A stretch of DNA of 7,952 bases from a virus. Taxonomy: Monodnaviria; Loebvirae; Hofneiviricota; Faserviricetes; Tubulavirales; Inoviridae. The notes under the pieces were generated by a model. That model saw nothing but the letters and a program-made list of their open reading frames with translations. It had not been told where the DNA came from and searched no databases. Every line of letters starts with the position of its first letter. The first letter of the stretch is position 1. A program made the translations under genes and the position numbers. The stretch is from IMG/VR virus record IMGVR_UViG_2609459852_000002; one strand, given 5' to 3'. This document shows positions 7,032 through 7,165 of this stretch, one piece after another.

Positions 7032-7165
7032 GTTTGCACCGCAATATATTTACCGCATGCGCGCATCATAATCACATTTAATGCGTGTTGTAAATACGCA
7101 TGCGCTATGCGGGTGTAAAAAAAATGGAATAATCACCTTCTATTGAAAGGACATAGAGGTAAATT
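7032..7165. promoter_or_regulatory. Divergent promoter/operator region between the Rep operon and the regulator gene
   Basis: 134-bp non-coding gap between divergent genes. Contains the 9-mer CGCATGCGC twice (~7054-7062 and ~7097-7105, 43 bp apart), overlapping palindromes ATGCGCGCAT and CGCATGCG, further ATGCG half-sites near 7081 and 7107, and an A-tract. Confidence 0.55.

What the first reader, a model, noticed from the sequence alone, without database searches (positions are those of the whole stretch)
7032..7165. Divergent switch region with repeated CGCATGCGC motifs between the Rep operon and an RHH-like regulator
The 9-mer occurs twice about four helical turns apart and is embedded in palindromes, with extra half-sites nearby. 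This is the pattern expected for operators of a dimeric or tetrameric RHH repressor. The arrangement mirrors the rstR-rstA switch of CTXphi and would control whether the prophage replicates and is secreted.
Basis: partly seen in the sequence, partly recalled or inferred. Interest (0 to 1): 0.5.

Follow-up and report, generated by a model that had tools for sequence, protein, structure and literature searches.

The report
Repressor operators of filamentous prophage switch
The repeated CGCATGCGC motifs are very probably the binding sites of a small repressor that keeps an E. coli filamentous prophage silent, a switch directly related to the rstR-rstA immunity switch of the cholera-toxin phage family, so it is a newly placed member of a known kind and not a new mechanism.

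Summary
CGCATGCGC occurs exactly twice in the window, at 7054-7062 and 7097-7105, 43 bp apart. Seven CGCAT/ATGCG half-sites lie in 58 bp (1 of 2000 shuffles).

The window is an E. coli filamentous prophage at the dif/hipBA locus. The 70-aa regulator (7169-7381) is 61-63% identical to the 'environmental' rstR allele of CTXphi/pre-CTX and of Vibrio anguillarum VAI phages. Their rstA-rstR intergenic region aligns with this one.

In 12 homologous loci from at least 8 genera, the CATG cores lie at fixed positions around a conserved leftward promoter (-35 TTTACA, 18 bp, -10 TATGAT). One box covers the predicted transcription start and -10 edge. The other abuts the -35. The 43-bp spacing is essentially invariant.

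The block travels with the regulator next to three different Rep families. A near-identical E. coli prophage has exactly this cassette (7017-7306) replaced by another regulator N-terminus with different repeats. Relatives with Ala instead of Arg in the N-terminal strand have ACATGT boxes instead of GCATGC.

Binding and repression are inferred, not shown. Verdict: interpretation supported; new member of a known kind.

The parts
7054..7062 (.). Left box (A): CGCATGCGC, containing the palindrome CGCATGCG. It covers the predicted transcription start (about 7058) of the leftward promoter.
   Evidence: Exact 9-mer. Its CATG core lies at -33 (-32 in two of them) relative to the TGTAAA anchor in all 12 Arg-class loci compared (the Photorhabdus locus counted by hand).
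7062..7069 (.). Degenerate second left box (A2): CGCATCAT, 8 bp after box A, overlapping the -10 of the leftward promoter.
   Evidence: Read from the sequence. A second CATG 8 bp after the first is present in metagenome P0014, Xenorhabdus, Arsenophonus, Salmonella P0015 and L059.
7047..7060 (.). Left arm of the inverted repeat: TATTTACCGCATGC.
   Evidence: Inverted repeat I1, 14 nt, 79% complementary to 7083-7096. TATTTAC-NN-CATGC is conserved in the enterobacterial, Gilliamella, Xenorhabdus, Arsenophonus and Photorhabdus loci.
7081..7088 (.). Middle, weak box (B): ATGCGTGT, inside the promoter spacer next to the -35. Most relatives have GCATGT or GCATGC here.
   Evidence: Alignment. A CATG lies at -5 in 6 of 12 loci. 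It is variable: E24377A and IMG/VR copies read ACACGTGT.
7083..7096 (.). Right arm of the inverted repeat: GCGTGTTGTAAATA. It contains the -35 of the leftward promoter.
7097..7105 (.). Right box (C): CGCATGCGC. It lies just upstream of the leftward -35, and about 40 bp upstream of the predicted start of the regulator's own promoter.
   Evidence: Exact 9-mer. GTAAATAYRCATRC is found next to the regulator gene in 24 of the 33 loci held at that point. The CATG core lies at +10 from the anchor in 10 of 12 loci; VAI2 reads CATA there and Salmonella P0015 has its CATG at +14.
7107..7111 (.). Extra half-site (D): ATGCG, 7 bp after box C.
   Evidence: An equivalent second CATG 7-8 bp after box C occurs in Salmonella P0005, pre-CTX, VAI2 and L059, but not in the other loci.
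7089..7094 (-). -35 hexamer TTTACA of the leftward promoter (orf65-Rep operon).
   Evidence: Promoter scan, 10 of 12 consensus matches with an 18-bp spacer. TTTACA is invariant in the 11 loci scored by script, and in Photorhabdus by eye.
7065..7070 (-). -10 hexamer TATGAT of the leftward promoter.
   Evidence: At the same 18-bp spacing the homologues have TATCAT, TAGTAT, TAATAT or TATTAT.
7125..7133 (+). Candidate extended -10 (TGgAATAAT) of the regulator's own promoter. Predicted start about 7140.
   Evidence: My reading of the alignment. The A at hexamer position 2 and the T at position 6 are invariant in 12 loci, and TG precedes the hexamer in most. The consensus scanner did not report it because there is no good -35.
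7169..7381 (+). Regulator gene, 70 aa. It is a homologue of the 'environmental' RstR allele and has a predicted ribbon-helix-helix-like fold.
6834..7031 (-). orf65, the first gene of the leftward operon. Its stop overlaps the Rep start codon (TAATG).
   Evidence: RefSeq annotation, phrog_3104 of unknown function.
5638..6834 (-). Rep gene, an RstA-like rolling-circle replication initiator of 398 aa counted from the ATG at 6834.
   Evidence: Pfam Rep_trans, E 2.2e-21. phrog_453 replication initiation protein. RefSeq coordinates.
7017..7306 (.). Exchangeable specificity cassette: the first codons of orf65, the whole intergenic region, and codons 1-46 of the regulator.
   Evidence: Window against E. 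coli AST217: 99.65% identity up to 7016, no similarity from 7017 to 7306, 97.7% from 7307 onward (sequences).

Best explanation
The region 7032-7165 is the immunity switch (the counterpart of CTXphi ig-2) of a dif-integrated E. coli filamentous prophage.

Proposed mechanism:
- The 70-aa regulator, a ribbon-helix-helix-type homologue of the 'environmental' RstR allele of the CTXphi family, binds GCATGC-cored boxes through its N-terminal strand (DTTVRIN).
- The boxes form two clusters with centres 43 bp apart, about four helical turns. The left cluster (7054-7069) lies over the transcription start and -10 of the leftward promoter. The right cluster (7097-7111) abuts its -35. A weak middle box lies in the spacer.
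- Occupancy of these boxes, probably cooperative between the two clusters, excludes RNA polymerase from the promoter of the orf65-Rep-ssDNA-binding-structural operon. This keeps the prophage silent and makes the lysogen immune to phages of the same specificity.
- The right cluster is also centred about 40 bp upstream of the regulator's own extended -10 promoter, so it probably autoregulates that promoter. The sign of that effect is unknown.

Shown here: the motifs, their conserved geometry around conserved promoter hexamers, co-inheritance and co-variation of motifs with the regulator, homology to rstR/ig-2, and an RHH-like predicted fold.

Inferred: binding, oligomeric state, repression, autoregulation and the induction signal.
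For: 1. Motif statistics: seven CGCAT/ATGCG in 58 bp, reached by 1 of 2000 shuffles; at most 2 per 134 bp elsewhere in the window.

2. Homology to a known switch. Rep is Rep_trans, the RstA family. The regulator gene matches the rstR genes of pre-CTX KR063268 and of CTXphi GQ466611 (annotated 'environmental RstR') and GU942563, and the RstR-like gene of VAI1/VAI2. Protein identity is 61-63%.

3. The non-coding core 7055-7103 is 81.6% identical to pre-CTX, more than the regulator gene itself at 70.5%.

4. In 12 Arg-class loci (E. coli, Salmonella x2, Xenorhabdus, Arsenophonus, Gilliamella, Photorhabdus, V. cholerae, V. anguillarum, 3 metagenomic), the CATG cores sit at -33 and +10 from the TGTAAA anchor. 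The leftward -35 TTTACA, 18-bp spacer and TAnnAT -10 are kept.

5. The same block lies next to regulators paired with three Pfam Rep families: Rep_trans, Phage_CRI/G2P_X_C (Gilliamella L022, L059) and Phage_GPA (L032).

6. Reverse search: the 16-mer TGTAAATACGCATGCG has 11 exact hits in 2.9 million viral contigs. Nine are on the contigs that the regulator search had already returned, where the box lies about 65-80 bp upstream of the regulator gene. The other two are lone hits with no regulator homologue (tblastn) and no second box.

7. Cassette swap in AST217: an almost identical Rep (99.65% DNA identity up to 7016), but 7017-7306 is replaced by a different regulator N-terminus with TGACCTCATG/CATGAGGTCA repeats and no CGCATGCGC.

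8. Specificity co-variation:
- DTTVR[IV] regulators carry GCATGC boxes (11 of 13 loci, and no ACATGT within the box region).
- DTT[VI]AIN regulators carry ACATGT boxes (4 of 4 loci, no GCATGC).
- KSIGI regulators carry GTGCAA repeats.
- KAIAIT regulators carry GTTAAC repeats.

10. Published reporter assays show allele-specific repression of the cognate ig-2 promoter by eight other rstR alleles, including three short ones of 180-204 bp, in E. coli (PMC11509585).
Against: - No binding or expression data exist for this protein or for its Vibrio allele. That allele is not among the eight tested in PMC11509585, because none of the primers match it.
- Part of the conserved block is the promoter itself (-35 and -10), so not all of the conservation argues for an operator.
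- An orthologue of the regulator (93% aa) in E. coli E100341 sits in a different context with no CATG boxes upstream. The gene can therefore exist without local operators.
- In L032 the right element is inverted, so the geometry is not universal.
- The 9-mer repeat alone is only marginally non-random, about 5% of shuffles.
Confidence: 0.75

Rival explanations
1. The repeats are iterons or the nick-site region of the replication origin and are recognised by the Rep (RstA-like) protein, not by the small regulator.
For: Rolling-circle Rep genes often lie next to their origin. The repeats sit 165-215 bp upstream of the Rep start, separated from it by orf65.
Against: E. coli AST217 has an almost identical Rep gene (99.65% DNA identity up to 7016) but lacks the motifs entirely. 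The same motif block is found next to three different Pfam Rep families. In CTXphi the plus-strand origin is placed in ig-1, on the far side of rstR (background knowledge; VAI paper PMC7412436). The window has an ig-1-like hairpin and GC-rich region at 7382-7670.
Confidence: 0.03
2. The inverted repeat (7047-7060 / 7083-7096, plus the two palindromic 9-mers) works as a hairpin in the single-stranded phage genome. It would serve as a minus-strand origin, a packaging signal or a folded recombination site, and the duplex motifs would be secondary.
For: Filamentous phages use ssDNA hairpins for these functions (background knowledge). The packaged-strand sequence of 7036-7112 folds to -17.9 kcal/mol, z = -1.94.
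Against: 12 of 200 shuffles fold at least as well. Across species the arms are kept by sequence conservation of CATG boxes at fixed distances from promoter hexamers, not by compensatory changes. The Vibrio left arm lacks TATTTAC. The element is exchanged together with the regulator's DNA-reading N-terminus, and its sequence co-varies with that strand. A pure ssDNA structure does not predict either of these.
Confidence: 0.07
3. The regulator does bind these boxes, but its main role is not repression of the Rep operon. It might only autoregulate itself, as RHH antitoxins and plasmid CopG/omega-type regulators do, or it might activate the leftward operon.
For: The right box is centred about 40 bp upstream of both predicted starts, a position used by activators as well as repressors (geometry). 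An orphan copy without local boxes exists in E100341.
Against: The left box lies on the predicted start and -10 edge of a near-consensus promoter (10 of 12 matches), which needs no activator. That position is typical of repression. Eight other rstR alleles, including short ones, repress their ig-2 promoters (PMC11509585). The prophage persists in 32 complete E. coli genomes. No toxin gene is adjacent.
Confidence: 0.1
4. The motifs are promoter architecture or host-factor sites (for example a global regulator), or a chance cluster, and are unrelated to the adjacent small protein.
For: The block overlaps the -35 and -10 hexamers. The 9-mer repeat alone occurs in about 5% of shuffles.
Against: The CATG cores lie outside the hexamers and are conserved at fixed positions across hosts from Vibrio to Gilliamella. 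Within one host species (E. coli) the motifs are replaced together with the regulator N-terminus. The motif sequence tracks the regulator class. The pentamer cluster was reached in only 1 of 2000 shuffles. There is no LexA-type CTG-N10-CAG site, since 7032-7165 contains neither CTG nor CAG (sequence printed).
Confidence: 0.05

Closest known systems
'Environmental' rstR allele with its ig-2 in pre-CTX/CTXphi prophages of Vibrio cholerae (KR063268, GQ466611, GU942563) and in Vibrio anguillarum phages VAI1/VAI2. It is probably the allele called rstR-4** in the literature; that name is from memory and was not verified.
   Same: The regulator is homologous (61-63% aa; the strand DTTVRIN is identical). 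It has the same divergent position upstream of an RstA-family Rep. The intergenic region aligns, with the same GCATGC boxes, the same 43-bp spacing and the same -35 TTTACA / 18 bp / -10.
   Different: The host is E. coli and the structural module differs, including its own secretin. An extra 65-aa ORF lies between the switch and Rep. The Vibrio left arm lacks TATTTAC. The regulator's C-terminal tail differs. The Vibrio records annotate a longer (86-aa) ORF, whose start lies within the right-hand box cluster.
CTXphi El Tor RstR / ig-2 / PrstA switch (Kimsey, Waldor and colleagues; background knowledge, and as summarised in PMC11509585).
   Same: A divergently transcribed repressor controls the rstA (Rep) promoter from operators in the intergenic region. 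Specificity is allele-specific and arises from exchange of rstR plus ig-2 as a cassette. Both elements are dif-associated filamentous prophages.
   Different: RstR-ET is a protein of about 112 aa. From memory it is HTH/Xre-type, binds three long operators as tetramers, and PrstA is co-repressed by LexA. Here the protein has 70 aa, is RHH-like by fold, the boxes are short GCATGC palindromes, and no LexA box is present.
Ribbon-helix-helix repressors with short repeated or palindromic boxes: MetJ (tandem 8-bp palindromic metboxes), Arc/Mnt of P22, CopG of pMV158, ParD/CopA antitoxins.
   Different: There is no detectable sequence relationship. Helix B is long (residues 39-69). The two box clusters lie 43 bp apart and bracket a promoter. 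No co-repressor or toxin partner is evident.
phrog_2503, a PHROGs family of unknown function.
   Same: Both the window regulator (E 1.5e-27) and the AST217 variant (E 7.4e-27) belong to it.
   Different: The family carries no functional annotation. Pfam and NCBIfam have no model for it.

Membership tests
RstR(environmental allele)/ig-2 immunity module of CTX-like inoviruses | Regulator protein homologous to the annotated RstR of this allele. | tested here: met
   About 70% DNA identity over 172 nt to the rstR of KR063268, GQ466611, GU942563 and VAI1/2. 61-63% aa identity with an invariant RxDTTVRxxE strand. P0040 'Repressor-like protein' of V. cholerae has E 5.7e-26.
RstR(environmental allele)/ig-2 immunity module of CTX-like inoviruses | Regulator transcribed divergently from an RstA-family (Rep_trans) replication gene. 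| tested here: met
   Rep matches PF02486 at 2.2e-21 on the opposite strand. The layout is the same in L001 and L002. A 65-aa ORF is interposed here.
RstR(environmental allele)/ig-2 immunity module of CTX-like inoviruses | Homologous intergenic region with the same repeated boxes. | tested here: met
   Alignments. 81.6% identity over 7055-7103 against pre-CTX. CATG cores at -33 and +10 from the anchor.
RstR(environmental allele)/ig-2 immunity module of CTX-like inoviruses | Regulator and intergenic region are exchanged as a specificity cassette between otherwise near-identical phages. | tested here: met
   AST217 against the window: the breakpoints are at 7016/7017 and 7306/7307.
RstR(environmental allele)/ig-2 immunity module of CTX-like inoviruses | Regulator represses the Rep promoter and confers allele-specific immunity. 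| not testable with these tools
   Only shown experimentally for other alleles (PMC11509585). This allele is not among them.
CTXphi-ET type switch (HTH RstR plus LexA co-repression) | LexA (SOS) box in the intergenic region. | tested here: not met
   7032-7165 contains neither CTG nor CAG, so no CTG-N10-CAG site is possible (sequence).
CTXphi-ET type switch (HTH RstR plus LexA co-repression) | Repressor with a helix-turn-helix (Xre/cI-like) DNA-binding domain. | tested here: not met
   No HTH family was hit in Pfam at E up to 10 for the window protein. The model has two helices and RHH neighbours.
Ribbon-helix-helix (MetJ/Arc/CopG) superfamily | Strand-helix-helix fold of about 45 residues. 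| tested here: met
Ribbon-helix-helix (MetJ/Arc/CopG) superfamily | Sequence-profile match to an RHH family. | tested here: not met
   Pfam: none for the window protein, and one member of 24 has a ParG hit at E 0.025. PDB profile search: no RHH hit at E up to 10. hhalign against CopG: probability 0.7%. NCBIfam: none.
Ribbon-helix-helix (MetJ/Arc/CopG) superfamily | Dimer whose paired N-terminal strands read the major groove of a (pseudo)palindromic box. | tested here: inconclusive
   A dimer could not be modelled with these tools. Indirect support: the boxes are palindromes, and an Arg-to-Ala change in the strand goes with GCATGC-to-ACATGT boxes.

The most novel reading that the evidence does not exclude
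This is an uncatalogued, widespread family of portable RHH 'immunity cassettes' for filamentous phages. It has more than 200 protein clusters and no Pfam or NCBIfam model; its PHROG is listed as 'unknown function'.

A roughly 290-bp unit, made of the operator block plus the strand/helix-A coding part, would be swapped among phages that use three unrelated Rep families. Its DNA specificity would follow a simple code in the N-terminal strand: Arg13 reads GCATGC, Ala13 reads ACATGT, and other strands read GTGCAA, GTTAAC or TGACCTCA.

Some prophages, such as E. coli E100341, would stockpile orphan repressor genes of foreign specificity as cross-immunity against competing phages.
Probability: 0.35. 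Interest if true: 0.55.

Novelty: new member of a known kind. Interest (0 to 1): 0.4.

Why it matters
- Annotation: it gives a function and a testable operator map to genes that RefSeq calls 'hypothetical protein' in a filamentous prophage. That prophage is found in 32 of 5426 complete E. coli genomes, including ETEC E24377A.
- Link to cholera phage biology: it connects these elements directly to the rstR/ig-2 immunity system.
- Ribbon-helix-helix repressors: the short rstR alleles of the CTXphi family are probably RHH repressors with GCATGC-type boxes. No paper in the searched library holds both 'rstR' and 'ribbon-helix-helix'.
- Practical use: the co-variation between strand and box offers a compact natural series for studying RHH specificity. 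It could also help predict superinfection immunity groups among dif-integrated inoviruses.
- Limit: it does not reveal a new mechanism.

Tried and rejected
- Rep-origin hypothesis: rejected because of the AST217 swap and the three Rep families.
- LexA box as in CTXphi-ET: none possible in 7032-7165.
- ssDNA hairpin: weak, z = -1.94. The ig-1-like region 7382-7680 gave z = -1.0.
- Rfam scan of 6800-7952: nothing near gathering scores.
- I tried to identify the Vibrio allele among the eight tested in PMC11509585 by matching primers. None match, so there is no direct experimental support for this allele. The name rstR-4** is my recollection only.
- Genome-contig scan with the regulator profile returned only 3 loci. 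A second viral scan added only 2 new loci. P0057 was not on record.
- A rightward sigma-70 promoter using the left-arm TTTACC as -35 was considered and rejected, because the spacing to any -10-like hexamer is only about 12 bp.
- The scanner's + strand hit (GTGAGA ... TATATT, 7023-7050, 9 of 12 matches) was not adopted, because its -35 lies inside orf65 and is not conserved.

Full report
**Context.** The window is a filamentous (inovirus) prophage.
- On the minus strand it encodes a secretin (274-1533), a Zot/pI-like assembly ATPase (1530-2588), a pVI-like and a pIII-like protein, a small coat-like ORF, a 111-aa protein (5293-5628), a Rep and a 65-aa ORF (6834-7031).
- Rep runs from 5638 to 6834 and matches Pfam Rep_trans at E 2.2e-21.
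- On the plus strand lies a 70-aa ORF (ATG 7169 to 7381).
- The same element is found in 32 of 5426 complete E. coli genomes, all annotated as 'hypothetical protein'. In the two genomes whose flanks I inspected, ETEC E24377A and AST217, it lies beside hipA/hipBA, that is at the dif locus.

**The observation.**
- CGCATGCGC occurs exactly twice in the window, at 7054-7062 and 7097-7105, 43 bp apart.
- Both copies contain the palindrome CGCATGCG. The first overlaps ATGCGCGCAT, and further half-sites lie at 7062, 7081 and 7107.
- A 9-nt repeat by itself is not striking: 107 of 2000 shuffles of the region have one.
- The cluster of seven CGCAT/ATGCG pentamers is striking: 1 of 2000 shuffles, and no more than 2 per 134 bp anywhere else in the window.

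**Promoters.**
- The consensus scan finds one strong leftward promoter: -35 TTTACA (7094-7089), 18-bp spacer, -10 TATGAT (7070-7065), 10 of 12 matches. This puts the start near 7058, inside the left 9-mer.
- The right 9-mer begins 3 bp upstream of the -35.
- For the regulator, I read TGgAATAAT (7125-7133) in the multi-species alignment as an extended -10. Its A2 and T6 are invariant in 12 loci. The predicted start is about 7140, so the right 9-mer is centred about 40 bp upstream of it.

**Homology to the CTXphi switch.**
- The regulator gene is about 70% identical in DNA to the rstR of pre-CTX KR063268, to the rstR of CTXphi records GQ466611 (note: 'environmental RstR') and GU942563, and to the RstR-like gene of V. 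anguillarum VAI1/VAI2.
- At protein level the identity is 61-63%, with an invariant N-terminal RxDTTVRxxE.
- Their rstA-rstR intergenic regions align with 7040-7135.
- By blastn, the non-coding core 7055-7103 is the best-conserved segment between the E. coli and V. cholerae elements (81.6%, against 70.5% for the regulator gene).
- This allele is not one of the eight whose allele-specific repression of ig-2 was shown with reporters in PMC11509585, because none of the primers match. That paper does show that other short alleles of 180-204 bp are real repressors in E. coli.

**Comparative footprint.**
- Protein searches found more than 200 clusters of this family in Enterobacterales, Orbales, Vibrionales and Alteromonadales. 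None has a Pfam domain.
- I fetched loci from Salmonella (two types), Xenorhabdus, Arsenophonus, Gilliamella, Photorhabdus and metagenomes.
- In 12 loci whose regulator has the DTTVR strand, the intergenic regions share two blocks: (A)TATTTAC-NN-CATGC-R-C-R-CAT and GCATG-NN-GTAAATAC-GCATGCG.
- Relative to TGTAAA, CATG cores sit at -33 in all 12 loci (-32 in two) and at +10 in 10 of 12, so the 43-bp spacing is essentially invariant. Extra cores occur at -25, -5, +17/18 or +25 in subsets.
- The leftward -35, 18-bp spacer and TAnnAT -10 are kept throughout.
- Within E. coli the two 9-mers are invariant, while the middle half-site at 7081 changes (ATGCG to ACACG).

**The block belongs to the regulator, not to Rep.**
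- The same block accompanies regulators paired with Rep_trans, with Phage_CRI/G2P_X_C (Gilliamella L022; L059) and with Phage_GPA (L032, where the right element is inverted).
- Searching the 16-mer TGTAAATACGCATGCG in 2.9 million viral contigs gives 11 hits. Nine are on the contigs that the regulator search had already returned, where the box lies about 65-80 bp upstream of the regulator gene. Two are isolated hits without a regulator homologue or a second box.
- E. coli AST217 carries the same prophage: 99.65% identity up to 7016 and 97.7% from 7307. Between those points, 7017-7306 is replaced by unrelated sequence.
- That replaced stretch holds the first codons of orf65, the whole intergenic region and regulator codons 1-46. 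The replacement encodes a different N-terminus (KSYNVP...) and has TGACCTCATG / CATGAGGTCA repeats instead of CGCATGCGC.
- This is the pattern known for heteroimmune CTXphi alleles.

**Co-variation of the protein strand with the DNA repeat**.

| Regulator N-terminal strand | Repeat in the upstream region | Loci |
|---|---|---|
| DTTVR[IV] | GCATGC in the 150 bp upstream | 11 of 13; none has ACATGT within the box region. The only ACATGT is the window's, and it spans the orf65 start codon. |
| DTT[VI]AIN | TTACATGTAA palindromes, two to three per region; no GCATGC | 4 of 4 |
| KSIGI[ST] | 3-4 GTGCAA repeats | 2, next to two different upstream contexts |
| KAIAIT (E100341 regA) | GTTAAC repeats | 1 |

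In L059 the GCATGC boxes occur as tandem pairs 8 bp apart (GCATGCGCGCATGC). This recalls MetJ metboxes.

**Fold.**
- AlphaFold on a 24-sequence alignment gives pLDDT 78, with an extended N-terminus (residues 1-15) and helices 16-33 and 39-69.
- Foldseek finds only non-significant hits.
- Sequence profiles give nothing. PHROGs puts the protein in phrog_2503, 'unknown function'.
- I therefore call it RHH-like by fold, with moderate confidence.

**Mechanism proposed.**
- Dimers of the regulator read GCATGC-cored boxes with their paired N-terminal strands.
- The left cluster (7054-7069) lies on the start and -10 of the orf65-Rep promoter. The right cluster (7097-7111) lies against the -35. The weak middle box lies in the spacer.
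- The invariant four-turn spacing suggests cooperation between the clusters, perhaps through the long helix B. The C-terminal third of that helix lies outside the exchangeable cassette.
- The result would be silencing of replication and virion genes, and immunity specific to this operator type.
- The right cluster probably also autoregulates the regulator's promoter.
- All of this is inference from geometry and comparison.
- There is no LexA box, so the inducing signal is unknown.

**Rivals.**
- Rep origin is excluded by the AST217 swap and by the three Rep families.
- An ssDNA hairpin is weakly supported (z = -1.94) and does not explain the co-variation.
- Pure promoter architecture, a host factor or chance do not explain the swap within one host species or the class-specific repeats.
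- An autoregulator-only or activator role remains possible, but it is disfavoured by the position of the left box on a near-consensus promoter.

**Caveat.** An orthologue of the regulator (93% aa) in E. coli E100341 lies in a row of three small regulator genes with no CATG boxes. The homology to the window starts only at the ribosome-binding site. It may be a relic or an orphan immunity gene.

**Verdict.** The switch is a new, previously unannotated member of the rstR/ig-2 kind. The added points are that this allele class is RHH-like and that its operator boxes can now be defined. It is moderately interesting.

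Noticed in passing
window 7875-7902 (and hairpin 7901-7938): AGTGCGCACAATGGCGTTATGTATAAA looks like a degenerate dif-type XerC/XerD site (by eye: XerC arm 9 of 11, XerD arm 8 of 11). It is more than 3 mismatches from E. coli dif. A GC-rich hairpin follows it. The prophage lies at the hipBA/dif locus, so this may be the att junction of an XerCD-integrated element.
   Followed up: partly
window 6834-7031 (-): A 65-aa ORF is the first gene of the leftward operon, and its stop overlaps the Rep start (TAATG). It belongs to phrog_3104 (unknown function) and has no Pfam hit. A small ORF in the same position precedes Rep_trans genes in Photorhabdus and in the P0014 metagenome locus; L057 encodes a similar N-terminus directly upstream of its switch, though its Rep family was not checked. 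CTXphi has no equivalent. Its role is unknown; it might be an antirepressor or a Rep accessory.
   Followed up: partly
L004 (E. coli E100341) 2161-3060: Three small regulator-like genes lie in a row downstream of a Phage_GPA-type Rep. The first is a KAIAIT-type regulator with GTTAAC repeats. The second is an orphan orthologue (93% aa) of the window regulator without CATG boxes. The third (MPTKHIND...) begins much like the RstR-calc N-terminus implied by the published primer (MATKHIKD...). The last two are flanked by direct repeats of about 45 bp, AACAT.TAGTTACCTATCGATACGAAGATT. This could be a stockpile of immunity genes or a recombination scar.
   Followed up: no
window 7382-7680: Downstream of the regulator there are two perfect hairpins (about 7440-7457 GGAAACCC...GGTTTCC-type, and 7469-7490 CCCCCGT...ACGGGGG) and a 64-69% GC island at 7500-7650 in an otherwise 35-45% GC element. 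This is probably the counterpart of CTXphi ig-1 (origin or packaging). The overall fold is not better than shuffles (z = -1.0).
   Followed up: partly
window 7723-7863 (+): A 46-aa hydrophobic ORF (MHDMILDLLMKYLIAGSLFGMF...) lies between the GC-rich region and the dif-like site. A homologue follows the regulator cassette in L004 (MQTTSDLILDLLIKHFVVGS...). It has no family hit.
   Followed up: no
window 2905-4554 (-), about 3230-3640: The pIII-like protein contains a very long (TGSG)n/(TG)n linker, encoded by a GT/GC-rich tandem repeat. That repeat also creates long spurious ORFs in other frames.
   Followed up: no
L001/L028/L029 (pre-CTX, CTXphi records) 1430-1690: GenBank annotates the 'environmental' rstR as an 86-aa ORF that starts within the right-hand box cluster. 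Comparison with 20 homologues indicates that the real start is the ATG at L001 1496 (64 aa), which the VAI2 record uses.
   Followed up: partly
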